Positions 1 through 35,890 of a DNA stretch of 35,890 nucleotides are shown piece after piece; position 1 is the first letter of the stretch, and every line of letters starts with the position of its first letter. The position numbers and the translations under genes were made by a program. This DNA comes from a virus (taxonomy: Duplodnaviria > Heunggongvirae > Uroviricota > Caudoviricetes). Location of the stretch: the IMG/VR virus record IMGVR_UViG_2909303794_000009. The stretch is one strand, 5' to 3'. The notes beneath the pieces were generated by a model. It searched no databases and had not been told where the DNA came from. It saw nothing but the letters and a program-made list of their open reading frames with translations.

Positions 1-585
1 CTATTCGATAATGGGTACTGTTGGCCATTCAATATCCGGTGCAGTTGTTGTATTAACACGGTTCAGCAACACCCGATATTTTTTCCAGGCTTCCAGCAAT
101 GAGGTTTCTTCCTCCGTTGCGATCTCCAGATCTACAGCATCCTGAAGTGGCGCTATATGCTCACTGGCTACCTGCATCAGGCTGTTTTTTGTTTCTTCCG
201 CCTCCCGGATCCGGAACAGTTTTTCTGCTTCCGTATCCTTCACCCAGGCTGTGCCGTTCCACTTCTGATATTCCCCTTCCGGCGATAACCAGGTGACATT
301 TTCCGGTAACGAGCCAAGTTCAGAAATAAATAACGCGTCGCCGGAAGCCACGTCATAGACGGTTTTTCCCCGATGATCTTCAACGAGATGCCACGATGCC
401 TCATCACTGTTGAAAACAGCCACAAAGCCAGCCGGAATATCTGGCGGTGCAATATCGGTACTGTTTGCTGGCAGACCTGTATGAGGCGGAATATATGCGT
501 CACCTTCACCAATAAATTCATTAGTTCCGGCCAGCAGATTATAAATTTTTATGGTCCGTGCTTGTTCACTCATTCTGAATGCCAT
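1..585 (-). CDS. tfa: Tail fiber assembly protein (lambda Tfa-like, 194 aa)
   Basis: ORF-track protein [24 protein letters not shown]... matches lambda Tfa as I recall it in length and sequence; start overlaps the stf stop by 1 nt (ATGA). Confidence 0.9.
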
Positions 586-3500
586 TATGCAAGCCTCACA
601 ATATAGTTAAATGCGATATTTTTGACGGTGTTTTCCGCGTTACCAGCAGCGTTAACGGTGATGGTGTGTCCATGTGAGCCAATCGCAACCGAGTGCGTAT
701 GAGCACCAATACCCACAGTATGTGCGTGTGCACCTGCGCTTGCAGCAGTACCCGATACAGAGTGCGTATGAGCGCCTGCAGAAGAAGTGTTAACACTGTA
801 TTTAGAATAATCAGATGCTCCACTTCCCGGAGCACCACTGGAACCACCTGAAACAAATGTCATCGAATGGGTATGTGCACCGGCTGAAGCAGCCGTACCG
901 CTAACACTATGGGTATGCGCCCCGGTGTTATTCGTGGATTTAGTGCCGTAATCAAACGACGATGTGGTTTTCGTACCCAAATCCGTACTGGATGCGCTGG
1001 CGCTGTGGGTGTGCGATTTAATGCCGTCCTGTTCCTGAGACAATATGGCTCGACCACTGGCGGGCTTGCCCTTAATCATCCAGCCACGCATATCAGGGAT
1101 CACGCCTGACGGATAAGCAGCTGCAAGTTTCGGGTAAGCAGATTTGTCAAAAGTCTGCCCCTGCATCAGGGCATAACCAGACGGAACGGTATCTGATGGC
1201 CACGGGATTGGTGCGCCGACTGGGTAGCTTTCTGGTGGAAGATTTTTCGAGGTATAAACTTCTGCCCAGTCTTCCTCAAAACCATAACCGTCTCTTGAAG
1301 AACGGTAGAACAGACCACCATTTCTGTAATGCGCCTTCATCTGCAAGGTCCGGCAACTTCCGACTCCGGTATAGAAGTTAACCAGAATATAGCTGTCGCC
1401 AGAGCGAGTGACATTGTAAGCGCCTGATTCGGCATTCCAGGGAACGCCCCCATCCGCATCGGCATACGTATCCGTTGCTCTTCTGGCAAAAGCAGCAACA
1501 TGCGCAGCGGTTAAAGTGATATCAGTAGAACCATCAAACGAAACACCAGATATTTTTATTGCTGTCTGAAGTTTCGTAGCTGTATCAGAATTTCCCTTAA
1601 TCCCCTTAGGAGAATTAAGTGGTGTATTGATCGTCACTTCACCTGTTGCGTTATTTACTGCAAATGGTCGAAGACCGTTCCAGCCACCGTACTGGTCGCC
1701 TTTATCAGTCATGAGCAAGTAAGTATTTGCTCCATCATTTCGCCATATGACACCGTAATCACCTGCAATCATCCTTAACGCGTTCTGACTACGGACAATA
1801 ACTTCATCATTAGCGTAAATCTTATTCCCGCTAATGTCTGACTTACTCAAAACAGGATACGAACTATAAAATCCATTACCTTGTTTAAAATCTAAAATTA
1901 AATTTACCGCAACTGATTCAGAATAAGGATCAGTTGCGCCAAATTTATAAGTCGTTTCAGCAACAATATAATCAGAAGCAGGTGCAGTAACGGAGAGACC
2001 TTCTTCTAAAAAGACCTCTACGGGAAATGCCCCACCTTCTATATAGAATACGCTGTCTACGGTATCGCCTTTATTACTCATCAGAATGGAATGAATAGCG
2101 CGTTCCGATGATGAATAAGCCCAGAACATACCACAGGCATAGCTACCCCGGTCCGTCCAGCCGCCTGCGCAAACAAAACCATTAAACTCACAATTATTCA
2201 TTCTGTGATTAGCTAAGCGACTTGGCGTTGAAATGACAACGCGGGATGCCCGATGGCTGTCATTCCTTTTTATCACTAACGGATAATATTTACCTTCCTG
2301 GACACCCGCCGGGGCATTTACCACAACGTATCGCATCCCCTTTTTCTGATCCACTTCACCTTTGCTGTAAACATTAATGTTACTCAGGAAGCGGTCCTTG
2401 TCGGGAATATCAGCACCGTTCTGGTCTTTCTGCAGACGTTTCTCTGCATTGTCATAGGCTGCTTTTACTGCCTTTGGCGTTGCCGCCAGTGACTCGGAAG
2501 TGCTGTTAGTCGCACTACTGAGCTGTACTATCCCCTTTTTCGTCGTGCTCGCATCCTCAAGCGCCACGGCGGATGCAATATCCTCTGCCCGTTTTGCCGC
2601 TGTCTCAGCGCGCGTTGCTGCAGATTCCGCCGTACTTTTGCTCTGTGCTGCCGCCGTCGCACTACCAGCAGCCTCTGTCGCCTTCGTGGATGCCGTCGTG
2701 GCGCTGCCCTTCGCTGCTGACGCCTGTCTGGTCGCCTCATCTTTTGAAGCAGACGCCGATGATGCCGATGACGCCGCCGAACTGGCGGACGATGCGGCAG
2801 CCGTTTTTGAGGATTCTGCACGGGTTTCCGACGCTTTCGCGTTCGTTTCGGATGTCTTCGCTGCGGAAGCTGACCTCGCTGCTGCGCTGGCCTGTTCAGT
2901 GGCTTCGCCAGCCTTCGTTGTGGCTGTTGAAGCGGATGATGCGGCGCTTTCTGCCGACTTTCCGGCGGCGGTGGCACTGGCTGAGGCCTGCCCGGCACTT
3001 GTTGACGCGGCACTGGCAGACGACGCAGCCGCTGTTTTTGAGACTGCCGCAGCTGAGGCGCTCTGTCCCGCTGCCGTCTCAGAAGACCTGGCGTTCGTCT
3101 CGGACGTTTTTGCCGCCTTCGCGGAATTTGCTGCCGCCGTTGCCGAGGAAGCTGCGCTACTGGCGCTCGAGGATGCGTTCGTTTCTGATGATTTTGCCGC
3201 CTCTTTTGAAGCCGCCGCATCCCGGGCTGAGGTGGCAGCTTCTGACGCTTTCGTGGTCGCGGTGGATGCAGAAGTGGCGGCTGATTGTTCTGACGCTGCG
3301 GCATTCGTTTCTGACGTTTTCGCGGCACTGGCACTGGTAGCTGCCGCGCTTTTTGAGGACTCTGCAGCGGCAGCACTTTTTTCCGCTTCAGTGGCCTTTG
3401 TTGATGCCGTTCCTGCGCTGGAAGACGCTGACTGAGCCGACGAAGCGGCCTGTCCGGCTGACGTGCTGGCTGCGCGTGCTGAGCCTGCAGCATCAGTCGC

Positions 3501-3938
3501 ATGGGTTGCCGCCTCACGGGCAGATGTGCCGGCATCGCCGGCTGACTTCTTCGCGGCTGCCGTGTTCTGTGCCACCGCGGACGCGTTACGCGCCACCTCT
3601 TCCACCATCAGTTCAAAACGGCGCAGTGCCTCCGGACGGGCATCATCCTCCGTCATGGCACCGAGAAAATCATTCAGCGTACCGGGTCGGGAATCTTCAT
3701 ACACGGTGATGGTCCCAGCATGTGACGGCGGGAATCCTTCCACCAACAGAATAACGCTGTACTGACCGTACTCAACGTCCATGCTGTAACGCCCGGCTTC
3801 ATCCGGATTTTCTGAGGCCAGCGTGTTCACCACCACCGTGGTGCTGTTACGTTTTGCTTTCAGCTGGATTGTGCAGTTCTGTACCGGTTTTCCTGTGCCG
3901 TCTTTCAGTACACCTGAAATCTTTACTGCCATATTCAC
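585..3938 (-). CDS. stf: Side tail fiber protein, long variant (1117 aa) with lambda-like N and C termini and a distinct central domain
   Basis: N-terminus [29 protein letters not shown]... and C-terminus ...[40 protein letters not shown] are lambda Stf-like; middle ~450 aa differ; sits between lom and tfa. Confidence 0.85.
2550..3610 (-). repeat. Low-complexity Ala/Ser/Thr-rich repeat region encoded within stf
   Basis: Protein residues ~110-460 are reiterated A/S/T/E/K motifs (e.g. KTSETNA..., SASSAASSA...); the GC-rich repetitive DNA creates long stop-free alternative frames on both strands. Confidence 0.6.
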
Positions 3939-3939
3939 C

Positions 3940-3972
3940 CCACAAAAAAGCCCGCCTGAACCGGCGGGCTGT
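3940..3972 (-). terminator. Putative intrinsic terminator between lom and stf
   Basis: Minus strand reads AGCCCGCC-GGTTCA-GGCGGGCT followed by TTTTTTGT; GC stem plus U tract immediately 3' of the lom stop. Confidence 0.5.
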
Positions 3973-3996: not shown

Positions 3997-4596
3997 TCAG
4001 AATTTATAACCGACACCCACGATGAAACCGTCAGTGCGCCAGTCACCACTGCCGGAGCCTTCATAAGCAATATCAATGGCCACGGATTCGGTCGGGTTAA
4101 ACTGCACGCCAGCTCCCCACGCCAGAGACGTGTTGCTGTGGCGACCGTCATCACTTCCGGTCAGCACGTCGTGCGTTTTCCCCTTGTTGTCAATTACGCG
4201 GAGATAATCCCCGGAGAAAGTCGACACACGGCTGTAAGCCACACCCGCCATCGCATACGCGCTGAACCATTCATTCACGCGCACAGACGGCCCCGCCATT
4301 ACGCTGAACCAGCGGTTACGCACGGAATCTTCATGCCAGCGGGTATCGCTGTAACGGGTAAGCTGGCGATTCTTGTCTCCTGCATAGCTGAATGACGTCA
4401 CCATTCCCAGCGTGTCCGTAAACTCATAACGGTATTTCACGTTAATCCCGTTCAGATCATCGCTGCCGGAAACGTTCGTCGAGGCATGAAGATAGCCCGC
4501 GCTCAGCGTGGACTGATGTTCAGACGCCCATGCAGGCGCACCGGATACGGCCAGACAGATGGCTGCGGACAAAATGGCGGCATAAAGTTTACGCAT
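3997..4596 (-). CDS. lom: Outer membrane protein Lom (Ail/OmpX-family beta-barrel, 199 aa)
   Basis: Signal peptide [24 protein letters not shown], ends in aromatic ...GVGYKF typical of OM beta-barrels; lambda Lom-like sequence and position between J and stf. Confidence 0.9.
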
Positions 4597-4614: not shown

Positions 4615-4646
4615 TGCAATAAAAAAGGCGTCATTTCTGACGCCCG
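4615..4646 (-). terminator. Putative intrinsic terminator downstream of J
   Basis: Minus strand GGGCGTCA-GAAA-TGACGCC followed by TTTTTTATTG, then the lom RBS (GAGAGG) and ATG. Confidence 0.5.
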
Positions 4647-4662: not shown

Positions 4663-7600
4663 TCAGCTGATACTGATACCTGCTGTGGATTTTTTCATCA
4701 CCACAACCAGCAGATCGCTGATACTGGTTGTTGGTGTCCAGTTATTCGCTCCTGATGAAGATACGGTGAATGTCAGTGTCAGCGTCCCCTGTCCGGCAGG
4801 CATATCTATAACGGAGGAAAATACGCCCTGAGCATCCGTCGTGGACTGATTAAAAATCTCCTGACCATTGCGGGTCACTCTTAACCGGCAGGTTGAATAC
4901 CAGTATGACTGTTGGTTATTACTGTTGAAATTCTCATGCTTACCACCGCGGAATAACACTGGCGGTATCATGACCTGCCGGTCAAATTTCTGATCATCAC
5001 TGATTCTTACCGTGATGGTGCCACTGGCATAAGTGCTCGTGCGGGGGAAAGACTTGCTGACCGTTTTGACAATATCGCCTTCAATCTGATTGGCTGACAG
5101 TTTCCCCTTAATCTGACAGTTCTCATTAATCGTGACGTTGTTGAGCGTCCCGGAGTTCGCATTCACACTGCCACTGATATCCGCATTTTTAGCGGTCAGC
5201 TTTCCGTCCGGTGTCAGGGAAAAGGCCGGAGGATTGCCGCCGCTGGTAATGGTGGGGGCCGTCAGGCGCTTCAGGAACACTTCATTCATGAATATCTGAT
5301 CACCCTGACCAACAAACATCGGTTTTGTGTTGCCATTCGCAGGATTAATCATCGCAATCCTGTCTGCCGCCAGCAGCACCTGACTCTGCATTCCTGCTGG
5401 CGTATTCTCAATACCGGCACCGATACCCGCAATATAAAGGCGTCCGTCCTTCATCTGTTGCAGCTTCACAGCCCACATGCTGTTCAGATTATTATTTGTA
5501 TCAACCTGAACCTTCTGTATCTGCTGGATCGCTGCACTCTGGTCTTCCAGTTTCTTATTGACGGTCTGTGTGATTTCATTGCTGACATCCGTAATGGACG
5601 TCCTGATTTCAGCCAGGTCAGGCGCAAGCTGACCGTTATCAATCTGCGTCCACAGCTCCTGAGCCAGATGGGTTTTCCCTATCTCGCCTTTGAAAAAATC
5701 CAGATAGCCTGATGCATCATCACTCGGCTGACCGACAGCCTCCACGAATGCCGATTTGCCAACGGTGTTCACACTGCGAACGTAAAAATAATAATCATGG
5801 CCCGGTTTGATATTGATACTGGCGGCTATCCAGTACAGTGCCGTACCAAGATAACGCGCGCTGGTTTCAACCTGCCTGATATCCGCAATCCGTTTTTCCG
5901 AGAACCAGAACTCAAACTGTACCGTCGGGTCATAAACCGCAAGATGCGGCGTGGCGGTTATCTGAAAATAGCCCGGCGTCAGCTCAATCCGCGACGGCGC
6001 TGCCGGTGCGGCAATCCGGAACGATACCGACGCCGGATCGCCCTGCTGCCCCCACGCATTTACTGCCCGGACTGTCAGCCTGTAGTTCCCCAGAGCCAGT
6101 TGTGTGAAGCGGTAAGTGGTTTCCGTCGTCCGGGCCGTGCTGACCAGCCGCTCACGGCCGTCATCCGCTGCCACGGTCAGGCGAAGCAGGAAGCTCACGC
6201 CCTTCACCACCTTCGGCGTGTCCCAGCGGGCCAGCACCTGGTATTCCCCGCTGTCTGCGGTGACTTCTGCGGTCAGGTGCTGCACCGCTGGCGGCGTGAC
6301 ACCATTTACCGTGCCGCTCTGGTCGCCGTCAAAGTGCGCCCCGTTATCCACGATGGCCTCTTTTTCCGGTACATGCTGCACGGCGGTGATGGCATACGTG
6401 CCGTCGTCGTTCTCACGGATACTCACGCAGCGGAACAGGCGCTGGCGCAACGTCGGCAGCTTCAGCCCCCATACGCTGTATTCAGCAACGCCGTCAGGAA
6501 CACGGCTCACTTTCACCTTCACGCCGTCGGTGACGGACTGAACCTCCACGCTGACCGGACTCCCCTGCCCGTCAACCAGGCTTATCAGCGTGGTGCCGGA
6601 AGATGGCAGCGTGATTTCACGGTCGAGCGTCAGCGTCCGGGTCTGGCTGTTTACCGCCAGCACGCGCCCGCCGGTGCGGATACCGGCATAGTCATCATCG
6701 CAGATTTCAATGACATCGCCCGGTACATGGCGAAGCCCTTCGGCACCCACGCTGAAGTCCACGGTCTGCGTTTCCAGCAGTTCTGTTTTAATCAGCCACA
6801 GCCCGGCGCGGTGTGCCTGCCCCCGGCTGGTACAGCCAAAAGCATCCATCTTCGTGACGTTACGACCGTAACGGGCAATGGCCTGCGTGTCCTCCACAAG
6901 CTCTGTCGCCGTCTCCCAGCCGTTATTCGGGTCAATCCAGTTCACCTCAACGGCATTATGGCGGTCCTTCAGGGCGCTGAAGCTGTAGCGGAACGGCGCA
7001 CCATCATCCGGCATCACCACATTACTGCGGTTATAGGTCCACACCTTATCCGACGGTCGGTCCTGCACGAACGTCAGCGTCTGCCCGTTCCATACCGGCA
7101 TACAGCGCATCGCAGAGCAGAAATCACTGAGCACATCCCACGCCTTGCGCTGTGTGGTCAGGTACGCATTACAGGTGATGCGCGGCTCCGTGCCGCCAAA
7201 ACCGTCCGGCACCGACTGATCGCAATGCTGGCCGATGACATACAGCGCCCATTTGTCCACATCCGCCGCACCAAGACGTTTCCCCATGCCGTAGCGCGGA
7301 TGGGTCAGCATATCCCACAGACACCAGGCCATGTTGTTGCTGTATGCTGGCTTAAACGTTCCGTCCCAGATACCGCTGTATTGCCGCGTCTGCGGGTTAT
7401 AGTTCGACGGCACCTGCAGAATGCGCCCACGCAGATGATAATTACGACTCACCTGCTGACTGCCGAACTGCTCCGAGTCCACCTGTACGCCGACCAGTGC
7501 CGTGTTCGGGTAGCACTGTTTCACATCGATGATTTCGGTATATGACGACCAGAGCGTTTTGTTCTGCAGCTGGTCTGTGGTGCTGTCCGGCGTCATCCTG

Positions 7601-8145
7601 CGCATCCGGATATTAAACGGGCGCGGCGGCAGGTTATCCACCACCACCGAGGCCAGATACTGTGAGGTGGTTTTTCCCTTAATGGTGATGTCTTTTTCCG
7701 TCACCCAGCCACCGTTACGCTGTATCTGAACCAGCAGGCGGACTTCCGACGGATTCCGGTCCCCCTTTGAGGTGGTTTCCACCAGTGCCTGCACACCGAA
7801 AGTAAAGCGCAGACGATCGATGTTTGCCGACGTGATGGTGCGGGTGATCGGCGTGTCGTATTTCACTTCCGTACCCAGCACCGTCTCAGAGCCGGAGGAT
7901 TCAAATCCCTCCGGCGGTGTCTGCTCCTGCTCACCGGCCCGGAACACCACCGTGACGCCGGAGATGTTGGTATTACCTTCACTGTCCAGCACCGGCGTAC
8001 TGTTCAGCAGCACGCTTTTTAATCCATCCACCGGACCTTCAATCGGCCCTTCGCTGATGGCATCAATCACACTCAGCAACTGCGTGGATTTGAGGTTGTC
8101 CTTCGCTTCGCGCGGGGTATGCCCCTTACTGCTGCCTTTACCCAT
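4663..8145 (-). CDS. J: Tail tip host-specificity protein J (central tail fiber), 1160 aa
   Basis: N-terminus [34 protein letters not shown]... is lambda J-like; the C-terminal ~150 aa diverge from lambda J. Confidence 0.9.
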
Positions 8146-26701: not shown

Positions 26702-27037
26702 TTACTCCTTCGAGCTACCAAACTTGTTACCGATTACTCTCATTGCAGCCCCACGAATAGCATCGACACCGATCAGCCCCACCCCACCACCAATGGCAAC
26801 AGAAAGCGATTTAGGCCATCCGACATACTCAAGCGCGGATGCAAAGGTCAACGTCAGAGCGCCACATAGCAAAATCTCGAGCGTTTTTCGCTTCCAGCCA
26901 CCACCACCGCCAAAATAGGCGATGCGCAAACCAGCCATAACAATCGACATAATCACTGCGCCCAGCGGCGTATCTCCACGCCACCAGCTCTGAAACAACT
27001 CCAGCCAGTCCGGCCAGGTATTTGGGTTATGAGGCAT
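26702..27037 (-). CDS. S: Holin (lambda S family but divergent), ~111 aa from the MPHNPNTW start
   Basis: Three hydrophobic segments (GAVIMSIVMAGLRIAYF, LEILLCGALTLTFASAL, VAIGGGVGLIGVDAI) and a charged C-terminus; loosely alignable to lambda S; GAGGTGA RBS upstream of the ATG at 27037. The ORF track extends to 27133, overlapping the methyltransferase 3' end. Confidence 0.7.
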   Translation of the reverse strand: MPHNPNTWPDWLELFQSWWRGDTPLGAVIMSIVMAGLRIAYFGGGGGWKRKTLEILLCGALTLTFASALEYVGWPKSLSVAIGGGVGLIGVDAIRGAAMRVIGNKFGSSKE

Positions 27038-27113
27038 TTCGTCATCTCTCACCTCGCGATATTTGCGGGTGCTGTGTTGGAAATAAAAAGGCCACGCAAC
27101 GTGGCCACCAGAA

Positions 27114-28166
27114 TTATTTCCCCACCAGTTCACTTACCTCTTTCACCGTCTGATTAAACCGCTCTGACTCAAGTTCAACACCTAACGCCCGACGCCCCAG
27201 CGCCATTGCCGCTTTTATTGTGGAACCGGATCCCATAAAGAAATCAGCAACCAGATCGCCTTGTCGACTACTGGCACTGATTATTTGCCGGAGCATATCC
27301 GCAGGCTTCTCACACGGATGTTTACCCGGGTAGAACTGAACGGGTTTATGCGTCCAGACATCGGTATAAGGCACGGAAACTGATACGGAGAAATAGCGCC
27401 GGAGAGTTTTAAACTCATCCAGCAATTCAGAATATTTGCGATTCAGTGAATCATAAGATGCCACCAGCTGGTGGTGTGGTTGTTCCAGTTGTTGTTCCTG
27501 AAATTTCTCTGCCGCTATACGGGAAAACAGTGCCTGCAACTTCCGGTAGTCAGCCTCATTCGGCAACTGCCACTGACTGGCACCAAACCAGTGGGAAACC
27601 ATATTTTTCTTACCAGTGGCTTCGGCAATCTGTTTTGCCGTTATACCCAGTTCGGCACGAGCATCCCTGAAATACGAAATCAGCGGTGCCATTATGTGCT
27701 GTTTGAGTTGACTTTCTTTTGCCGCATAGCCGTCACTTTTGCCGCGATATGGTCCCTGGTAATGTTCAGCAAACAGAACGCGTTCTGTTGCGGGAAAATA
27801 TGCGCGCAGACTTTCTTTATTACACCCGTTCCATCGTCCGGACGGCTTCGCCCAGATAATATGGTTAAGAACGTTGAAACGTTCACGCATCATGATCTCG
27901 ATATCAGATGCGAGGCGATGTCCACAGAACAGGTAAAGGCTTCCGGCAGGTTTCAGCACCCGCCAGAACTGAGCCAGACAGTGGTCCAGCCACTTCAGGT
28001 AATCTTCGTCCCCTTTCCACTGATTGTCCCAACCGTTGGGTTTCACCTTGAAGTACGGCGGATCGGTAACAATCAGGTCAATGGAATCATCAGGCAGGGA
28101 CTGAATAAAATGCAGGCAATCAGCGTTGATTAAATCAACACTGTTTATTTTCACAGTATTTTTCAT
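27114..28166 (-). CDS. Orphan DNA methyltransferase (N6-adenine/N4-cytosine type, beta-class motif order), 350 aa
   Basis: N-terminal catalytic motif IV DPPY (…IDLIVTDPPYF…) and C-terminal SAM-binding motif I (…DFFMGSGST…); no adjacent restriction endonuclease gene. Confidence 0.85.
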   Translation of the reverse strand: MKNTVKINSVDLINADCLHFIQSLPDDSIDLIVTDPPYFKVKPNGWDNQWKGDEDYLKWLDHCLAQFWRVLKPAGSLYLFCGHRLASDIEIMMRERFNVLNHIIWAKPSGRWNGCNKESLRAYFPATERVLFAEHYQGPYRGKSDGYAAKESQLKQHIMAPLISYFRDARAELGITAKQIAEATGKKNMVSHWFGASQWQLPNEADYRKLQALFSRIAAEKFQEQQLEQPHHQLVASYDSLNRKYSELLDEFKTLRRYFSVSVSVPYTDVWTHKPVQFYPGKHPCEKPADMLRQIISASSRQGDLVADFFMGSGSTIKAAMALGRRALGVELESERFNQTVKEVSELVGK

Positions 28167-28699: not shown

Positions 28700-29084
28700 A
28701 TTTTTTACGTACGTAAACCTCTAAACAATATTTGTGAGAATGATATCGAGTGTTCAAAACACCACCACAATCACATAAGGAAAAATAAACAAATAATCAT
28801 TAAATAATTTCCGACGTTATTTTCAGTGAATTTAAATTAAAGAGATGAATTATAGAACACTTATAAATAACAACCTTTAATATAATTTAGCTACCAAATT
28901 TATTTTCTTTCAGAGAATAGTCATGCACAGCATGCATTAGAAAAAGTTCAGATAAAAATAGAGATCTAGATCACAATTTAAATAAGAATCTAAAACTTAC
29001 ATCTTGAATTAATCACATTGATTAGATGAATATTTGTCGCGCAGGGCATCATTTTTTAATAAATGTTCAAAAAAAGGTCTCACG
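28700..29084 (+). promoter_or_regulatory. AT-rich upstream regulatory region of the porin gene
   Basis: ~380 bp of very low GC with repeated TTTA/ACAT-type motifs (e.g. ACTTACATCTTGAATTAATCACATTGATTAGATG) resembling porin promoter/OmpR-box regions; no -10/-35 assigned. Confidence 0.3.
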
Positions 29085-30167
29085 ATGAAAAAATTAACAG
29101 TGGCAATTTCTGCTGTAGCTGCATCAGTACTGATGGCGATGTCTGCTCAGGCAGCTGAAATTTATAATAAAGACAGTAACAAGCTGGATCTGTACGGGAA
29201 AGTTAATGCTAAGCACTACTTCTCCTCTAATGATGCAGATGATGGTGATACTACTTATGCCCGTCTTGGCTTCAAAGGTGAAACCCAAATCAACGATCAA
29301 CTGACTGGTTTCGGTCAGTGGGAATATGAATTCAAAGGCAACCGCGCTGAATCTCAAGGTTCCTCCAAAGATAAAACCCGTCTTGCCTTCGCTGGCCTGA
29401 AATTCGGTGACTACGGCTCCATCGATTATGGCCGTAACTACGGTGTAGCATACGATATTGGTGCATGGACCGACGTTCTGCCAGAATTCGGTGGCGATAC
29501 CTGGACCCAAACAGATGTATTCATGACTGGTCGCACCACAGGTGTTGCAACTTATCGTAACAACGACTTCTTTGGTCTGGTTGATGGCCTGAACTTTGCA
29601 GCTCAGTATCAGGGCAAAAATGACCGAAATGAAGTAACTGAAGCTAATGGCGATGGTTTCGGTTTCTCAACTACTTATGAGTATGAAGGATTCGGCGTGG
29701 GTGCAACCTATGCTAAATCTGATCGCACTAATAATCAGGTTATCCTCGGTAACAACGGTCTGAATGCTTCTGGTAAAAATGCTGAAGTATGGGCAGCTGG
29801 TCTGAAATATGATGCGAACAACATCTATCTGGCCACCACCTATTCTGAAACCCAGAACATGACTGTTTTTGGTAATAACCATATTGCCAACAAAGCACAA
29901 AACTTCGAAGCTGTTGCACAATATCAGTTCGACTTCGGCCTGCGTCCATCCGTTGCTTACCTGCATTCTAAAGGAAAAGACTTGGGTGTTTGGGGTGATC
30001 AGGACCTGGTTGAATATGTTGATGTAGGTGCAACCTATTACTTCAACAAAAATATGTCCACTTTTGTTGACTACAAAATCAACCTGATTGATAAGAGCGA
30101 TTTCACGAAAGCATCTGGCGTTGCTACCGATGATATCGTTGCTGTAGGTATGGTTTACCAGTTCTAA
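29085..30167 (+). CDS. nmpC: Outer membrane general porin, NmpC/Lc/OmpC-family (360 aa with signal peptide)
   Basis: [40 protein letters not shown]… signal peptide and mature N-terminus, C-terminal …VAVGMVYQF; the ORF track begins 17 codons earlier at an alternative start codon. Confidence 0.85.
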
Positions 30168-30355: not shown

Positions 30356-30739
30356 TTAATTAGAGTTATTAACAACGATATCCATCTCTAACCGGATATC
30401 TAATGCCATTAACATCCCTTCAATTATGCCCTCAGCCTTTTGTAACCTTTTCCCGATATAACCATCAGAGCAGCAATGCTTACCTGCCAGTGACATGAAT
30501 GTCATACCGACTATATAATAATCTACTAATAAATCATGCAAATCGCTGTTGTTCTTTTTCAGACGGGCCATGCACCCGCAAATGATCATCGCGTCATCGT
30601 CACAACATTGCGGGCGAGATTTTACTTTTGAAGGAATTAATCCCTTAAAACCGGCGGCAATGGACGACCAGGTCACATCTTCATGATTATTAGCCGCCCA
30701 CGCTCCCCAACGCTCAAGAACCATCTGAATATCACGCAT
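30356..30739 (-). CDS. Q: Late-gene antiterminator Q, phage 82/QuuD-type (127 aa from [11 protein letters not shown] start)
   Basis: [33 protein letters not shown]… with Cys cluster (…[12 protein letters not shown]…); GGAG RBS 8 nt upstream; unlike lambda Q; the ORF track begins 5 codons earlier. Confidence 0.75.
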
Positions 30740-30821
30740 CAACTTACTCCACAAAAATCAGACCAAAACGCCAATTACAAGCAAAAATCAACAAAACAGT
30801 ATTAGTTGATTGTTATCTCTG

Positions 30822-30962
30822 ACTTCATACTCCTGCTCCTGTCAGGGTTTTGGCGTAACTCTTCAGTATTCGGTAATCGGTCAAAACAGAACCGGGGAAA
30901 CGATATAAGCGCAGACGCCCCCAGCGGTGGCGAAGAAGTTCTGCCATATTAAACTCAAACAT
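30822..30962 (-). CDS. ylcG: Small protein YlcG-like (46 aa), start overlapping the rusA stop
   Basis: Hand-translated: [45 protein letters not shown]; below the ORF-track size cut-off; lies between rusA and Q. Confidence 0.5.
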
Positions 30963-31324
30963 CATTCATTCCCCATTTCGGTGATGGTCAGTTCCAGCCT
31001 CCCACCTTTGGTAACAGGCATCTTCACAACGCGGTAATCAACGACCTGAGCATCATCCAGCCAGAAACCTGCTTTAGTGAGTGCGTCAAAAGCGGCTTTT
31101 TGCAGATTATCCAGGTCACGGCGACGGCGATCCGGCATGTGGCACTCAATGCGGATTTTCACAGGCATAGCCAGGCCGATATCCAGTATTGCGTTTTTAA
31201 TGATTCGGGCGACGTTATCGCGGTATGCCTGCCCCTCTGCGCTGACGTGCGTGCGCCCGCGATTATGGCGGTAATAGCGATTATTGCTCGGAGGCCAGGG
31301 TAATGTGATGCTGTAGGTATTCAC
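30962..31324 (-). CDS. rusA: Holliday-junction resolvase RusA (120 aa)
   Basis: [41 protein letters not shown]… RusA family; nin-region position upstream of Q. Confidence 0.85.
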
Positions 31325-31446
31325 GCCTTAATAACCCCCTCTTTCAGCCAGATAACCTGTGTTCTCGCCATACCTTCCAGCGCGCATTCTTTTGCATATG
31401 CAGCATCGACTTGCTTGGCATGCCCTTTACCGGCAATCTTCTGTAT
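31321..31446 (-). pseudogene. 3' remnant of a ybcO-like nin-region gene
   Basis: Only ~41 in-frame codons (…[40 protein letters not shown]) with the stop overlapping the rusA start; an in-frame TAG lies immediately upstream and no plausible start is present. Confidence 0.4.
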
Positions 31447-31530
31447 GCGCTAAACCTAGATAGAATCCACTCTGTGCACATTGAAGCCCGCTCTATGCTT
31501 CCTTTCAGGTATTGAAGGGATTGAGATGGG

Positions 31531-31872
31531 CTAAGCATTATTGGCCTCCTGCATCAGGAGAAAGACAATCATGGCGGCGCGGAGAGGTCTGGTATCAAAT
31601 ATTGGGCTTACGCCTTTTGCATCCACACACCATTCAGTTAACTGGTCTAAGATAGAAATCCTGTATTTCTCAATAATCGGCCATGAAGCGCTCGGATCAT
31701 TGCAGTAGTCAGGCAAATGATTTAATGGCTCAAAAGTTGTATCAGCATTTCCGTAATACCATTTGTTGGTGTTATTCCCTGATGTTTCCGGTTTACTTGC
31801 CCAAAGGCCTTTAAAAATTATGTCTCCTACCATTCTGTTAATTTCAAAATCACTTAACTGTGAATAATCCAT
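31531..31872 (-). CDS. Hypothetical nin-region phage protein (113 aa from MDYSQL start)
   Basis: ORF-track frame 31531..31914; GAGGAA RBS fits the second ATG ([17 protein letters not shown]…); no family recognised; ~110 bp from the IS left end. Confidence 0.45.
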
Positions 31873-32037
31873 TGTCATTTCCTCGCACGATATCTTAGCC
31901 ACCGGATATCCCACAGGTGAGCTGTGTAATTGAAGGTTTTTACGTCAGATTCTTTTGGGATTGGCTTGCGTTTATTTCTGGAGTGAACCGCCCCGGGAAT
32001 CCTGGAGACTAAACTCCCTGAGAAAGAGGTAAACAGG

Positions 32038-32364
32038 ATGACTAAAAATACACGTTTTTCCCCCGAGGTCCGTCAACGGGCAGTTCGTATGGTTCTGGAA
32101 AGTCAGGGCGAATATGACTCTCAATGGGCGGCAATTTGTTCCATTGCCCCAAAGATTGGCTGTACACCAGAGACTCTGCGTGTGTGGGTTCGTCAGCATG
32201 AGCGGGATACCGGGAGTGGTGATGGTGGACTCACCACCGCTGAACGTCAGCGTCTGAAAGAGCTGGAACGTGAAAATCGTGAACTGCGCCGCAGTAACGA
32301 TATCCTTCGCCAGGCTTCCGCTTATTTTGCGAAGGCGGAGTTCGACCGCCTCTGGAAAAAATAA
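32038..32364 (+). CDS. IS3-family transposase OrfA (HTH, 108 aa)
   Basis: [59 protein letters not shown]… recognised as IS629-group OrfA; ends in an A-rich run (A AAA AAT AA) overlapping the orfB start. Confidence 0.85.
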
Positions 32365-33251
32365 TGCCGCTGCTGGATAAGCTGCGTGAGCAGTACGGGG
32401 TCGGACCGGTATGCAGTGAACTGCATATTGCCCCGTCAACGTATTACCACTGTCAGCAACAGCGACATCATCCTGATAAACGCAGTGCCCGTGCTCAGCG
32501 CGATGACTGGCTGAAGAGAGAGATACAGCGCGTATACGATGAAAATCATCAGGTGTACGGTGTGCGTAAAGTCTGGCGCCAGTTGTTACGCGAAGGTATC
32601 AGGGTGGCCAGATGTACAGTGGCGCGCCTCATGGCGGTTATGGGACTTGCCGGTGTTCTCCGGGGTAAAAAGGTCCGTACTACCGTCAGCCGGAAAGCCG
32701 TTTCCGCAGGCGACCGCGTAAACCGTCAGTTCGTGGCAGAACGTCCTGACCAGCTGTGGGTGGCTGATTTTACTTACGTCAGCACATGGCAGGGCTTCGT
32801 CTATGTGGCGTTCATCATTGATGTGTTTGCCGGATGTATCGTGGGGTGGCGAGTCTCATCGTCTATGGAAACGACATTCGTGCTGGATGCACTGGAGCAG
32901 GCGTTGTGGGCCCGTCGGCCGTCCGGCACAGTCCATCACAGTGATAAAGGTTCTCAGTATGTATCACTGGCCTATACGGAGCGACTAAAAGAAGCAAAAC
33001 TGCTGGCATCAACAGGGAGTACAGGTGACTCGTATGACAACGCGATGGCGGAGAGCATCAATGGTCTTTACAAAGCGGAGGTAATACACCGTAAGAGCTG
33101 GAAAAACCGTGCAGAAGTGGAACTGGCCACACTCACGTGGGTGGACTGGTATAACAATCGACGATTGCTGGGAAGGCTGGGTCATATCCCTCCGGCAGAA
33201 GCAGAAAAAGCTTATTATGCTTCCATCAGAAACGATGATCTGGCAGCCTGA
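32364..33251 (+). CDS. IS3-family transposase OrfB (DDE integrase core, 295 aa)
   Basis: …LWVADFTYVSTWQGFVYVAFIIDVFAGCIVGW…HSDKGSQYVS…DNAMAESINGLYKAEVI… DDE-type catalytic core. Confidence 0.85.
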   Translation: MPLLDKLREQYGVGPVCSELHIAPSTYYHCQQQRHHPDKRSARAQRDDWLKREIQRVYDENHQVYGVRKVWRQLLREGIRVARCTVARLMAVMGLAGVLRGKKVRTTVSRKAVSAGDRVNRQFVAERPDQLWVADFTYVSTWQGFVYVAFIIDVFAGCIVGWRVSSSMETTFVLDALEQALWARRPSGTVHHSDKGSQYVSLAYTERLKEAKLLASTGSTGDSYDNAMAESINGLYKAEVIHRKSWKNRAEVELATLTWVDWYNNRRLLGRLGHIPPAEAEKAYYASIRNDDLAA

Positions 33252-33295
33252 GTTCACAGATAAAACACTCTCCAGGAAAACCGGGGCGGTTCATA

Positions 33296-33423
33296 TTCCC
33301 TCCTCCGGTTAAGGATGGAAGAGAGTATCTGTTCCACGAATCAGCGGTAAAGGTTGACTTAAATCGACCAGTAACAGGTAGCCTTTTGAAGAGGATCAGA
33401 AATGGGAAGAAGGCGAAGTCATG
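33296..33423 (+). pseudogene. xis: Excisionase xis, 5'-truncated remnant (C-terminal ~42 codons only)
   Basis: Frame immediately after the IS right end reads FPPPVKDGREYLFHESAVKVDLNRPVTGSLLKRIRNGKKAKS*, the lambda Xis C-terminus, with its stop overlapping the int start; the N-terminal ~30 codons are absent. Confidence 0.7.
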
Positions 33424-34472
33424 AGCGCCGGGATTTACCCCCTAACCTTTATATAAGAAACAATGGATATTACTGCTACAGGGACCCAAGGACGGGTAAA
33501 GAGTTTGGATTAGGCCGAGACAGGCGAATCGCAATCACTGAAGCTATACAGGCCAACATTGAGTTATTTTCAGGACACAAACACAAGCCTCTGACAGCGA
33601 GAATCAACAGTGATAATTCCGTTACGTTACATTCATGGCTTGATCGCTACGAAAAAATCCTGGCCAGCAGAGGAATCAAGCAGAAGACACTCATAAATTA
33701 CATGAGCAAAATTAAAGCAATAAGGAGGGGTCTGCCTGATGCTCCACTTGAAGACATCACCACAAAAGAAATTGCGGCAATGCTCAATGGATACATAGAC
33801 GAGGGCAAGGCGGCATCAGCCAAGTTAATCAGATCAACACTGAGCGATGCATTCCGAGAGGCTATAGCTGAAGGCCATATAACAACAAACCCGGTCGCAG
33901 CCACTCGCGCTGCAAAATCAGAGGTAAGGAGATCAAGACTTACGGCTGACGAATACCTGAAAATTTATCAAGCAGCAGAATCATCACCATGTTGGCTTAG
34001 ACTTGCAATGGAACTGGCTGTTGTTACCGGGCAGCGAGTTGGTGATTTATGCGAAATGAAGTGGTCTGATATCGTAGATGGATATCTTTATGTCGAGCAA
34101 AGCAAAACAGGCGTAAAAATTGCCATCCCAACAACATTGCATGTTGATGCTCTCGGGATATCAATGAAGGAAACACTTGATAAATGCAAAAAGATTCTTG
34201 GCGGAGAAACCATAATTGCATCTACTCGTCGTGAACCGCTTTCATCCGGCACAGTATCAAGGTATTTTATGCGCGCACGAAAAGCATCAGGTCTCTCCTT
34301 CGAAGGGGATCCGCCAACCTTTCACGAGTTGCGCAGTTTGTCTGCAAGACTCTATGAGAAGCAGATAAGCGATAAATTTGCTCAACATCTTCTCGGGCAT
34401 AAGTCGGACACCATGGCATCACAGTATCGTGATGACAGAGGCAGGGAGTGGGACAAAATTGAAATCAAATAA
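33402..34472 (+). CDS. int: Integrase (tyrosine recombinase), lambda Int (356 aa)
   Basis: MGRRRSHERRDLPPNLYIRNNGYYCYRDPRTGKEFGLGRDRRIAITEAIQANIELF… essentially identical to lambda Int as recalled; followed by the att site. Confidence 0.95.
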   Translation: MGRRRSHERRDLPPNLYIRNNGYYCYRDPRTGKEFGLGRDRRIAITEAIQANIELFSGHKHKPLTARINSDNSVTLHSWLDRYEKILASRGIKQKTLINYMSKIKAIRRGLPDAPLEDITTKEIAAMLNGYIDEGKAASAKLIRSTLSDAFREAIAEGHITTNPVAATRAAKSEVRRSRLTADEYLKIYQAAESSPCWLRLAMELAVVTGQRVGDLCEMKWSDIVDGYLYVEQSKTGVKIAIPTTLHVDALGISMKETLDKCKKILGGETIIASTRREPLSSGTVSRYFMRARKASGLSFEGDPPTFHELRSLSARLYEKQISDKFAQHLLGHKSDTMASQYRDDRGREWDKIEIK

Positions 34473-34606: not shown

Positions 34607-35890
34607 GTGAACACATTTTCAGTTTCCCGTCTGGCGCTGGCATTGGCTTTTGGCGTGACGCTGACCGCCTGTAGCTCAACCCCGCCCGATCAACGTCCTT
34701 CTGATCAAACCGCGCCTGGTACCTCTTCTCGCCCGATTCTGTCGGCAAAAGAAGCGCAGAATTTCGATGCTCAACACTATTTTGCATCCCTGACACCAGG
34801 TGCTGCAGCGTGGAATCCTTCCCCGATTACCCTGCCTGCGCAACCTGACTTTGTTGTCGGCCCGGCGGGCACTCAAGGTGTAACGCATACCACGATTCAG
34901 GCGGCGGTAGATGCGGCAATTATCAAGCGTACCAACAAGCGCCAGTATATTGCCGTGATGCCTGGTGAGTATCAGGGAACGGTATATGTCCCTGCCGCTC
35001 CGGGTGGAATTACTCTGTACGGTACAGGTGAAAAACCGATTGATGTGAAGATTGGGCTTTCCCTTGATGGTGGCATGAGCCCTGCCGACTGGCGTCACGA
35101 CGTCAACCCGCGCGGCAAATATATGCCAGGTAAACCAGCGTGGTATATGTACGATAGCTGCCAGAGCAAACGCAGCGACAGTATCGGTGTTCTCTGCTCT
35201 GCGGTCTTCTGGTCACAAAACAATGGCCTGCAACTGCAAAATCTGACCATCGAAAACACGCTGGGCGATAGCGTAGATGCAGGTAACCATCCGGCGGTGG
35301 CACTGCGTACTGATGGTGACCAGGTACAGATTAACAACGTTAACATTCTCGGTCGTCAGAACACCTTCTTTGTCACCAACAGCGGTGTGCAGAACCGTCT
35401 GGAAACGAATCGTCAGCCGCGTACGCTGGTGACCAACAGCTACATTGAAGGGGATGTGGATATCGTTTCTGGTCGCGGCGCAGTGGTGTTCGATAACACC
35501 GAATTCCGCGTGGTGAACTCACGTACTCAGCAAGAAGCGTATGTGTTTGCACCGGCTACGCTGTCCAACATTTACTACGGTTTCCTCGCCGTAAACAGCC
35601 GTTTCAATGCTTTCGGTGATGGTGTGGCGCAACTGGGCCGCTCGCTGGATGTTGATGCCAATACCAACGGTCAGGTGGTGATCCGTGATAGCGCCATCAA
35701 CGAAGGTTTTAACACGGCTAAACCGTGGGCCGATGCGGTGATCTCTAATCGTCCGTTTGCGGGTAATACCGGCAGCGTAGATGATAACGACGAAATACAG
35801 CGCAATCTGAATGACACTAACTACAACCGCATGTGGGAATACAATAACCGCGGCGTGGGTAGTAAAGTGGTTGCAGAGGCGAAGAAGTAA
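34607..35890 (+). CDS. ybhC: Host outer-membrane lipoprotein YbhC (pectinesterase-like, 427 aa)
   Basis: (V/M)NTFSVSRLALALAFGVTLTAC lipoprotein signal; right-handed beta-helix-like repeats; recognised as the chromosomal gene flanking the lambda attachment site on the gal side. Confidence 0.85.
   Translation: MNTFSVSRLALALAFGVTLTACSSTPPDQRPSDQTAPGTSSRPILSAKEAQNFDAQHYFASLTPGAAAWNPSPITLPAQPDFVVGPAGTQGVTHTTIQAAVDAAIIKRTNKRQYIAVMPGEYQGTVYVPAAPGGITLYGTGEKPIDVKIGLSLDGGMSPADWRHDVNPRGKYMPGKPAWYMYDSCQSKRSDSIGVLCSAVFWSQNNGLQLQNLTIENTLGDSVDAGNHPAVALRTDGDQVQINNVNILGRQNTFFVTNSGVQNRLETNRQPRTLVTNSYIEGDVDIVSGRGAVVFDNTEFRVVNSRTQQEAYVFAPATLSNIYYGFLAVNSRFNAFGDGVAQLGRSLDVDANTNGQVVIRDSAINEGFNTAKPWADAVISNRPFAGNTGSVDDNDEIQRNLNDTNYNRMWEYNNRGVGSKVVAEAKK

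What the first reader, a model, noticed from the sequence alone, without database searches (positions are those of the whole stretch)
585..3938. Mosaic side tail fiber: lambda-type ends with a large replaced central region
The 1117-aa Stf shares the lambda N-terminal domain, the A/S/T-rich shaft and the His-rich C-terminal tip, but carries a ~450-aa internal segment (roughly residues 480-900, including …[20 protein letters not shown]… and …[24 protein letters not shown]…) that I do not see in lambda Stf. It resembles the long StfR-type fibers of other cryptic prophages. The inserted segment may carry a carbohydrate-binding or depolymerase-like activity.
Basis: partly seen in the sequence, partly recalled or inferred. 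Interest (0 to 1): 0.45.

Follow-up and report, generated by a model that had tools for sequence, protein, structure and literature searches.

The report
Ordinary StfR-type mosaic side tail fibre
This gene encodes a long side tail fibre of a defective lambda-like prophage, built from modules shared with phages lambda, Mu/P1/P2 and T4; it is a common, already catalogued type of fibre (85% identical to E. coli K-12 Rac StfR), and nothing in it looks like a sugar-degrading enzyme.

Summary
The ORF is real: window 585-3938, minus strand. The true start is probably the ATG at 3932, giving 1115 aa. It lies in the lambda order J-lom-stf-tfa. Residues 494-905 have no detectable similarity to lambda Stf (best BLASTP E 0.39). 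They replace lambda residues 389-530, the hinge and distal coiled coil. The A/S/T shaft is also about 100 aa longer than in lambda.

The protein is colinear with K-12 Rac StfR (85% identity) and with phage Turner's fibre (95%). The non-lambda segment is a chain of recognisable fibre modules:
- a Mu S-like linker;
- a ~165-aa beta-sandwich (533-700) with no Pfam model, seen only inside other phage fibres;
- the T4 gp34 P4 prism (704-784);
- a Mu S'/PF12604 module (814-903).

A T4 gp37-type tip with seven HxH motifs follows. No depolymerase signature was found by sequence or fold. Carbohydrate binding is untested.

Two stretches behave as independently swapped cassettes with saturated synonymous divergence: 494-800 and the tip head at about 1020-1052. 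Mosaic tail fibres are textbook biology and near-identical proteins are already in the databases. Interest is low.

The parts
585..3932 (-). stf coding sequence from the likely ATG start (1115 aa; the ORF listing extends it to a GTG at 3938). The stop codon is at 585-587.
   Evidence: 85% identical to K-12 StfR and 95% to phage Turner's fibre.
3531..3932 (-). Residues 3-136: lambda-type N-terminal domain that forms the collar on the tail (StfN) plus linker.
   Evidence: PF08400, E 9.2e-72. PDB 9e7m lambda tail fibre N-domain, E 1.8e-51. Function taken from PMC12617516.
2460..3629 (-). Residues 104-493: A/S/T-rich shaft (36% Ala, 22% Ser, 12% Thr). It is homologous to lambda's proximal coiled coil and about 100 aa longer; the extra part is residues 306-406, nt 2721-3023.
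   Evidence: Lambda architecture from PMC12617516.
2427..2549 (-). Residues 464-504: Phage_fiber_2 repeat ([17 protein letters not shown]). It is the conserved left flank of the swapped region; the junction with lambda lies at residue 493/494.
   Evidence: PF03406, E 5e-22. Mu S 111-170, 67% identity. Junction alignment.
1224..2459 (-). Residues 494-905: the segment with no counterpart in lambda Stf. It replaces lambda 389-530 (hinge plus distal coiled coil).
   Evidence: GC 0.43-0.47 against 0.62 in the shaft.
1839..2342 (-). Residues 533-700 ('subA'): ~165-aa beta-sandwich domain with conserved motifs PMNNCxFNG, GGWxDRG, ERAIHSI and AFPV. It has no Pfam model and is embedded as a single copy in fibres of many phage groups.
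   Evidence: No Pfam hit at E<=10. Homologues in a P1 variant, Tequintavirus, Aeromonas Straboviridae, Warwickvirus and Vequintavirus fibres. 129 clusters at 50% identity. AF2 pLDDT 70, pTM 0.75. Fold searches.
1587..1829 (-). Residues 704-784: T4 gp34-type module, i.e. the P4 beta-prism with flanking triple beta-helix turns.
   Evidence: PF21446, E 3.6e-30. T4 gp34 1035-1115, 52% identity; Mu S 269-334, 53% identity. Domain map from PMC5537660.
1230..1499 (-). Residues 814-903: Mu S'/P2 H-type module that precedes the distal tip in those fibres.
   Evidence: PDB 8ju3 residues 322-415. PF12604 at residues 828-887, 26.4 bits against a cut-off of 22.5. Mu Sv' 164-249, 48% identity. P2, P7 and FelixO1-like hits.
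588..1229 (-). Residues 904-1117: T4 gp37-type receptor-binding tip. It comprises the collar (908-955, nt 1074-1217), a needle with seven HxH motifs, and a distal head.
   Evidence: PDB 2xgf, E 1.3e-87. 69% identity to T4 gp37 812-1026. 67% identity to lambda 529-774. HxH count.
783..872 (-). Residues about 1023-1052: hypervariable head segment of the tip. It is a different allele from StfR, Turner, lambda and T4.
   Evidence: 54% identity in the 1001-1050 bin with saturated pS 0.77-0.80, against flanks at 96-100% identity. Tip alignment.
1..585 (-). tfa, tail fibre assembly chaperone (194 aa). Its start overlaps the stf stop.
   Evidence: 92.4% DNA identity to the lambda tip-end plus tfa. Annotated as tail fiber assembly protein.
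3949..3970 (-). Terminator-like hairpin plus T-run between lom and stf, immediately before the stf ribosome-binding site.
   Evidence: This is a consensus match only.

Best explanation
This is the side tail fibre gene of a lambda-like prophage, of the long 'StfR' architecture.

Shown by homology: the protein is a linear chain of modules.
1. A lambda StfN domain. In lambda it forms the collar that anchors four trimeric fibres to the tail.
2. An extended A/S/T coiled-coil shaft.
3. A Phage_fiber_2 repeat.
4. A beta-structured fibre body taken from the Mu S / P1 S / P2 H / T4 gp34 pool. It comprises a linker, a fibre-specific beta-sandwich, a gp34 P4 prism and a Mu S'-type module.
5. A T4 gp37-type collar-needle-head tip with seven HxH motifs. 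The downstream Tfa chaperone presumably folds it.

Inferred mechanism: the fibre is a homotrimer and the distal head of the tip makes the reversible first contact with the cell surface. The non-lambda central block acts mainly as a rigid, knobbed, trimer-nucleating shaft segment. It replaces lambda's hinge and distal coiled coil and lengthens the fibre. It is not an enzyme.

Shown by divergence patterns: residues 494-800 and the head (about 1020-1052) are two cassettes exchanged independently by recombination at conserved flanks. This fibre is therefore one allele combination in a polymorphic family.
For: - Gene order J-lom-stf-tfa.
- Full-length colinearity with StfR (85%) and Turner (95%).
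- Pfam: PF08400, PF21446, PF07484, PF03335, PF03406 and PF12604.
- PDB sequence matches to the lambda StfN domain, Mu S/S', T4 gp34 and T4 gp37.
- Seven HxH motifs aligned with the seven in the T4 gp37 tip.
- tfa is 92% identical to lambda tfa at the DNA level.
- Lambda Stf architecture and collar function (PMC12617516).
- Per Granell et al. (PMC5537660), the gp34 P-domains are trimeric beta-prisms within a triple beta-helix, i.e. structural shaft elements.
- The natural junctions (lambda 388/389 and about 530) lie within about five residues of the fusion points R393 and S528 that give functional engineered lambda STF chimeras (PMC11338833).
- Cassette behaviour against StfR: pS is 0.76-0.80 in 533-800 and in 1001-1050, but 0.04-0.16 in the flanks. 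Turner shares the central allele (pS 0.05) but not the head allele.
- subA matches only fibre proteins in BFVD and always sits inside long proteins as a single copy.
Against: - No experiment exists on this protein or on StfR. The receptor is unknown, because the head allele differs from T4, lambda and StfR.
- The structural role of 494-905 is an inference from homologous domains.
- subA has no solved homologue. The monomer model of the whole segment was useless (pLDDT 40).
- The strong allelic divergence of 494-800 would also fit a host-contact function.
- The prophage lacks its early region, so this copy may never be assembled into particles.
Confidence: 0.75

Rival explanations
1. The central cassette, especially the 533-700 beta-sandwich, is a second lateral receptor-binding site, for example for O-antigen or core sugars. 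The fibre would then have dual specificity: glycan through the mid-fibre knob and a porin or LPS through the tip.
For: - 494-800 is as divergent between alleles as the tip head (50-70% identity, saturated pS), while the flanks are 94-100% identical.
- This allele is in only 155 of 5426 complete E. coli genomes, against 1532 genomes with the overall locus.
- Lambda-type side fibres have been suggested to bind sugars: the BASEL authors suggest O16 O-antigen for Ur-lambda (PMC11990801), and a branched core galactose is reported for Gifsy-1 Stf (PMC12312913).
Against: - The fold matches are at noise level. There are no Foldseek PDB hits below E 0.15.
- The most conserved residues (NNCEFNG, GGWxDRG, ERAIHSI, AFPV) are shared by fibres of phages on very different hosts. 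This suits a structural core better than a specificity site.
- Ur-lambda is suggested to bind O-antigen without having this domain.
- Saturated pS shows ancient alleles moved by recombination. It does not show positive selection.
Confidence: 0.18
2. The inserted segment is a depolymerase (tailspike-like glycanase) domain.
Against: - No Pfam enzyme family was found at E<=10 in 520-705 or at E<=0.1 in the whole protein.
- The rest of the segment is accounted for by gp34, Mu S and PF12604 fibre modules.
- The unexplained stretch is about 165 aa, far shorter than a catalytic beta-helix.
- Foldseek gives TM <= 0.3.
Confidence: 0.02
3. In this genome the gene is a passenger of a decaying prophage and has no present function in particle formation. 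Its biological role is as a reservoir of fibre modules that incoming lambdoid phages pick up by recombination.
For: - The window goes from Q (30356-30754) to int (33402-34472) in about 2.6 kb, with an IS3-family transposase between them. The immunity and replication genes that lie between int and Q in lambda are therefore absent.
- De Paepe et al. showed that lambda recombines with Rac across stf-tfa (PMC3945230).
- The conserved flanks around both cassettes provide the homology.
Against: - The 3.3-kb ORF is intact, as are J, lom, tfa and the tail and head genes in the colinear genome.
- Phages carrying the same fibre exist: Turner at 95% overall and PhiR30_1 at 99.5% in the centre.
- This reading concerns the fate of this copy. 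It does not change what the protein is.
Confidence: 0.5

Closest known systems
E. coli K-12 Rac prophage StfR (b1372, 1120 aa)
   Same: Same gene position (lom-stf-tfa), same length and full-length colinearity at 85% identity. Identity is 94-100% in every 50-residue bin of residues 1-500, 801-1000 and 1051-1117. The shaft is extended in the same way.
   Different: The central cassette 501-800 is a different allele (50-70% identity, saturated synonymous divergence). The tip head is also different (1001-1050, 54%).
Side tail fibres of lambdoid phages Turner (PP925837) and PhiR30_1 (PV340558)
   Same: Turner is 95% identical over the full length and has the same central allele. PhiR30_1 is 99.5% identical over residues 501-903.
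   Different: Turner carries the StfR-type head allele at 1001-1050. Turner also has a DNA invertase gene downstream of tfa. Whether one exists here cannot be seen, because the window ends at the tfa stop.
Ur-lambda Stf (774 aa)
   Same: N-terminal collar domain, proximal A/S/T coiled coil, the [17 protein letters not shown] repeat, a gp37-like tip and Tfa.
   Different: Lambda 389-530 (hinge plus distal coiled coil) is replaced by 412 unrelated residues. The shaft is about 100 aa longer. The tip has seven HxH motifs, not eight, and lacks lambda's three tip insertions.
T4 long tail fibre proteins gp37 (tip, PDB 2xgf) and gp34 (P4 region, PDB 4uxe/5nxf)
   Same: The tip is 69% identical to gp37 812-1026, with collar, seven HxH motifs and an identical C-terminal end. 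Residues 704-784 are 52% identical to gp34 1035-1115.
   Different: In T4 these lie on two different proteins of a four-protein fibre. Here they are fused in one chain. The head loops differ. The chaperone is a lambda-type Tfa, not gp38.
Mu S/S', P1 S and P2 H tail fibres
   Same: They carry the same modules: the Phage_fiber_2 repeat plus linker, the gp34-like prism and the S'-type pre-tip module. Residues 462-521 match Mu S 111-170, residues 710-775 match Mu S 269-334, and residues 816-901 match Mu Sv' 164-249. A P1 variant also carries subA at 66% identity.
   Different: The N-terminal attachment differs (baseplate fibres of myoviruses) and so do the distal tips. Mu S has no BLASTP match to the 533-700 domain.

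Membership tests
Lambda-type side tail fibre (Stf) | N-terminal Stf collar domain (Pfam PF08400, lambda StfN) | tested here: met
   PF08400, E 9.2e-72, residues 3-136. PDB 9e7m, E 1.8e-51.
Lambda-type side tail fibre (Stf) | Gene lies after J and lom and is followed by an overlapping tfa chaperone gene | tested here: met
   ORF map. Annotation of the colinear genome. tfa is 92% identical to lambda tfa in DNA.
Lambda-type side tail fibre (Stf) | Colinear with lambda Stf along the whole length | tested here: not met
   Residues 494-905 have no similarity to lambda Stf (best E 0.39). There is no DNA match either.
Lambda-type side tail fibre (Stf) | Forms trimers, four per virion, attached at the gpV-gpM junction | not testable with these tools
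   Inferred from the near-identical N-domain and from PMC12617516.
StfR-type long side tail fibre (Rac) | About 1120 aa, full-length colinear with StfR including the extended shaft and the beta-structured central body | tested here: met
   A single BLASTP alignment, 3-1117 against 1-1120, 85% identity, 9 gaps.
T4 gp37-type receptor-binding tip | Collar domain plus a needle with seven HxH motifs and the conserved C-terminal end ...[11 protein letters not shown] | tested here: met
   PF07484, E 8.5e-12. 2xgf, E 1.3e-87. HxH at 976, 1008, 1022, 1057, 1071, 1080 and 1089, aligned with those of T4.
T4 gp37-type receptor-binding tip | Iron coordination by the HxH motifs; OmpC/LPS binding by the head | not testable with these tools
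   The head sequence differs from T4, lambda and StfR, so the receptor cannot be transferred by homology.
T4 gp34 C-terminal P-domain region (PF21446) | Match above the Pfam gathering score, and to the solved gp34 structure | tested here: met
   105.3 bits against a cut-off of 27. 4uxe/5nxf, E about 2e-18. 52% identity to gp34 1035-1115.
Tailspike or fibre depolymerase | A catalytic domain (right-handed beta-helix or another glycanase/esterase fold) recognisable by profile or by fold | tested here: not met
Carbohydrate-binding module or lectin | Significant sequence or fold match to a known CBM or lectin family | tested here: inconclusive

The most novel reading that the evidence does not exclude
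The 533-700 domain is an uncurated, fibre-specific beta-sandwich family. It has no Pfam model, about 129 clusters at 50% identity, and sits in siphovirus and myovirus fibres. Together with the gp34-type prism it may form a laterally exposed second binding knob, so that the 494-800 cassette would set a glycan specificity independently of the tip. StfR-type fibres would then be two-site adhesins whose two sites reassort separately.
Probability: 0.15. Interest if true: 0.4.

Novelty: already known. Interest (0 to 1): 0.15.

Why it matters
It matters little as a discovery. Mosaic tail fibres that share modules among lambda, T4, Mu, P1 and P2 have been known since the late 1980s and early 1990s (Montag et al. 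1989 and Haggard-Ljungquist et al. 1992, cited in PMC3945230). This architecture is present in E. coli K-12 itself.

It has some practical value:
- The natural junctions (lambda 388/389 and about 530) lie within about five residues of the points used to engineer functional lambda STF chimeras.
- The analysis defines two independently exchangeable cassettes, 494-800 and the tip head. These could guide host-range engineering.
- It flags a ~165-aa fibre domain that still lacks a curated family and a solved structure.

Tried and rejected
1. AlphaFold2 monomer model of the whole non-lambda segment (residues 501-903, 27-sequence alignment). Mean pLDDT was 40, so it was unusable and was not searched. 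This is expected for an intertwined trimer.
2. A profile of distant subA homologues (A2) as the query for the search for homologous proteins, to deepen the alignment. It returned only short E. coli fragments of 350 aa or less. In both searches no hit was longer than roughly twice the query length. Diversity was not improved, and the phage-derived sequences could not be used for structure prediction.
4. A profile search of the PDB with alignment A1 found no solved relative for profile positions before about 252, which include subA.
5. Literature searches for StfR found no structural or receptor study of it.
6. The depolymerase idea was rejected for lack of any signature.
7. I considered whether the long antisense ORFs inside the shaft (for example 2500-3435 on the plus strand and 2528-3535 in another minus-strand frame) are genes. 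I rejected this. They lie in GC-rich, low-complexity, Ala/Ser/Thr-coding repeat DNA where all frames stay open.
Full report
**Observation**

The ORF listing finds one long ORF at window 585..3938 on the minus strand, 1117 codons from a GTG. It is flanked downstream by a 194-aa ORF at 1..585. Upstream lie a 199-aa ORF at 3997..4596 and a 1160-aa ORF at 4663..8145. A genome that is 98.7% identical over the first 8.2 kb annotates these as tail fiber assembly protein, 'prophage tail fiber N-terminal domain-containing protein', Ail/Lom family protein and gpJ.

The GTG lies inside a GGGGTG Shine-Dalgarno-like element, 5 nt before an ATG at 3932. PGAP starts at that ATG and lambda Stf begins with the same MAVKISG. 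The protein is therefore probably 1115 aa.

**Comparison with lambda**

I rebuilt Ur-lambda Stf (774 aa) from NC_001416 by joining orf-401 and orf-314 across the known frameshift.

- At the DNA level the window matches lambda from upstream of the start to residue 305 (87.6%).
- It matches again over residues 407-492 (78.5%), 908-1000 (85.7%), and from residue 1069 through tfa (92.4%).
- At the protein level identity runs up to ...AATPKAVK (residues 485-492, lambda 380-387). It resumes at ...GAPIPWPSD (residue 908 onward, lambda 533 onward).
- A direct BLASTP of residues 494-905 against lambda 389-530, and against all of lambda Stf, gives nothing better than E 0.39.

Three refinements apply. 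The block is 412 aa at 494-905. It replaces 142 lambda residues rather than being inserted. The A/S/T shaft is also about 100 aa longer than in lambda (residues 306-406). According to the Ur-lambda cryo-EM/ET study, the replaced lambda part is the hinge (394-422) plus the distal coiled coil (423-525) (PMC12617516). GC content falls from 0.62 in the shaft to 0.43 in residues 533-785, a compositional mark of foreign origin.

**Comparison with StfR and with phages**

The protein aligns in one piece with K-12 Rac StfR (85% identity, 9 gaps) and with the fibre of Escherichia phage Turner (95%). The central region is 99.5% identical in phage PhiR30_1.

The J-lom-stf-tfa stretch is found at 80% coverage or more in 1532 of 5426 complete E. 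coli genomes. Residues 501-785 of this particular allele occur at 80% coverage or more in 155 genomes. In the protein database the central region has 1296 relatives at E <= 1e-5, including 100%-identical entries named 'tail fiber protein'.

**What the non-lambda block is made of**

Pfam finds PF08400 (3-136), PF21446 Gp34_trimer (657-760), PF07484 Collar (908-955) and PF03335 (1003-1016) in the whole protein. In sub-fragments it finds PF03406 Phage_fiber_2 (464-504) and PF12604 gp37_C (828-887).

Sequence searches of the PDB give:
- the lambda Stf N-domain (9e7m);
- Mu S and the S/S' chimera (5yvq, 8ju3) for 443-524 and 814-908;
- T4 gp34 (4uxe, 5nxf, 9x3r) for 703-794;
- the T4 gp37 tip (2xgf, E 1.3e-87) for 903-1117.

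Pairwise BLASTP gives these identities:

| Window residues | Match | Identity |
|---|---|---|
| 462-521 | Mu S 111-170 | 67% |
| 704-784 | T4 gp34 1035-1115 | 52% |
| 710-775 | Mu S 269-334 | 53% |
| 816-901 | Mu Sv' 164-249 | 48% |
| 904-1117 | T4 gp37 812-1026 | 69% |

In the gp34 crystal structure, residues 1014-1047 and 1105-1128 are triple beta-helix. The stretch between them is the P4 beta-prism, a trimeric structural knob (PMC5537660).

**The one unassigned piece: residues 533-700 ('subA')**

- It has no Pfam hit even at E <= 10.
- tblastn finds it inside fibres of a P1 variant (66% identity), a T5-like Salmonella phage, Aeromonas T4-like phages, a T1-like Warwickvirus and Vequintavirus lateral fibres. 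The shared motifs are PMNNCxFNG, GGWxDRG, ERAIHSI and AFPV.
- An exhaustive phmmer search finds 129 clusters at 50% identity (108 at E <= 1e-10). Almost all have a single copy, and most lie inside proteins of 400-2700 aa.
- AlphaFold2 on this domain alone gives a beta-sandwich with mean pLDDT 70 and pTM 0.75.
- Foldseek finds no PDB match below E 0.15.
- In the viral predicted-structure library it matches only tail fibre proteins.

So there is no depolymerase signature, and no usable evidence for or against sugar binding.

**The tip**

The window has seven HxH motifs (976, 1008, 1022, 1057, 1071, 1080, 1089). They align one-to-one with the seven of the T4 gp37 tip. Lambda has eight, plus three insertions. 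The collar and needle are nearly identical to StfR and Turner. The segment at about 1023-1052 aligns with the middle of the gp37 tip sequence, which from my own knowledge of the 2xgf structure is the distal head. Here it is a distinct allele, unlike StfR/Turner, lambda or T4. The receptor therefore cannot be assigned by homology. OmpC, the receptor of lambda Stf and T4 gp37 (PMC12617516), is only a prior.

**Cassette structure**

| Comparison | Region | Identity / divergence |
|---|---|---|
| vs StfR | 1-500, 801-1000, 1051-1117 | 94-100% identity |
| vs StfR | 501-800 | 50-70% identity |
| vs StfR | 1001-1050 | 54% identity |
| vs StfR | 533-800 and 1001-1050 | pS 0.76-0.80 (saturated) |
| vs StfR | flanks | pS 0.04-0.16 |
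| vs Turner | 494-903 | pS 0.04-0.07 (same central allele) |
| vs Turner | 1001-1050 | pS 0.77 (different head allele) |

The fibre thus carries two anciently diverged cassettes that reassort independently. They are bounded by conserved sequences: the Phage_fiber_2 repeat on the left and the region from about residue 801 ([12 protein letters not shown] at 799-810) on the right. This is the recombination pattern shown experimentally for lambda and Rac stf-tfa (PMC3945230). The natural lambda junctions (388/389 and about 530) are within a few residues of R393 and S528, the fusion points that give functional engineered lambda STF chimeras (PMC11338833).

**Mechanism proposed**

Shown: the module identities, order and junctions.

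Inferred from homologues:
- The protein trimerises.
- The N-domains form the collar on the tail.
- The A/S/T region forms a coiled-coil shaft about 100 residues longer than lambda's.
- The 494-905 block forms a beta-structured shaft with knobs (subA, P4 prism, S'-type module). It replaces lambda's hinge and distal coiled coil and may nucleate trimer folding.
- Tfa folds the gp37-type tip, whose head makes the first reversible contact with the cell.

I put 0.75 on this overall. I put about 0.95 on 'StfR-type mosaic side fibre' and about 0.6 on 'the central block is structural rather than a binding site'. The main rival (0.18) is that the variable 494-800 cassette is a second, lateral glycan-binding site. 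Its allelic divergence and the reported or suggested sugar binding of lambda-type Stf proteins (PMC11990801; PMC12312913) keep this open. The depolymerase reading gets 0.02.

**Context**

Between Q (30356-30754) and int (33402-34472) there are only about 2.6 kb, including an IS3-family transposase. The immunity and replication genes that lie between int and Q in lambda are therefore missing and the prophage is defective. The stf ORF is nevertheless intact.

**Verdict**

The feature is an ordinary, already catalogued member of a textbook mosaic family, so interest is low (0.15). The only mildly new points are the independent two-cassette structure and a ~165-aa fibre domain without a curated family or solved structure.

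Noticed in passing
window 29034-30167 (+): The prophage carries a full-length general porin gene (Pfam Porin_1, E 1e-152). It lies between the Q antiterminator gene (30356-30754) and a DNA methylase gene next to the lysis genes. From my own knowledge this resembles the lc porin of phage PA-2 and nmpC of DLP12. It is curious in a phage whose side fibre has an OmpC-type tip, because replacing the host porin could protect lysogens from related phages.
   Followed up: no
window 30356-34472: Only about 2.6 kb separate Q (30356-30754, minus strand) from a lambda-type integrase (33402-34472, plus strand). An IS3-family transposase lies between them (32364-33251). The immunity, replication and recombination genes found there in lambda are absent, so the prophage is defective.
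   Followed up: partly
window 34607-35890 (+), and L004 1-20000: The gene after int has a pectinesterase domain; I take it to be ybhC. In the closest genome the other side of the prophage is ybhB and the bio operon. This places the prophage at the lambda attachment site. In that genome a diguanylate cyclase gene sits between tfa and ybhB.
   Followed up: partly
window 27114-28166 (-): A 350-aa N6/N4 DNA methyltransferase gene (PF01555, E 1e-41) lies directly upstream of the holin gene (26702-27133) in the late operon.
   Followed up: no
   Followed up: no
window 2500-3535, both strands: Several long ORFs (255-335 aa) lie in other frames and on the opposite strand inside the A/S/T shaft region. 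The lambda record annotates a similar antisense 'orf206b' in the same place. They are most likely by-products of GC-rich, repetitive Ala/Ser/Thr coding DNA, not genes.
   Followed up: partly
window 3949-3970 (-) and 4626-4645 (-): Terminator-like GC hairpins with T-runs follow lom and J. The first ends a few bases before the stf ribosome-binding site, so stf expression would need read-through or antitermination. These are consensus matches only.
   Followed up: no
window 2721-3023 (-), residues 306-406: The extra ~100 aa of shaft relative to lambda contains a fourth copy of the SETNA-type repeat unit. Lambda has three such units, and the StfR shaft is 98-100% identical to the window over this stretch. 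This suggests shaft length changes by repeat gain or loss.
   Followed up: partly
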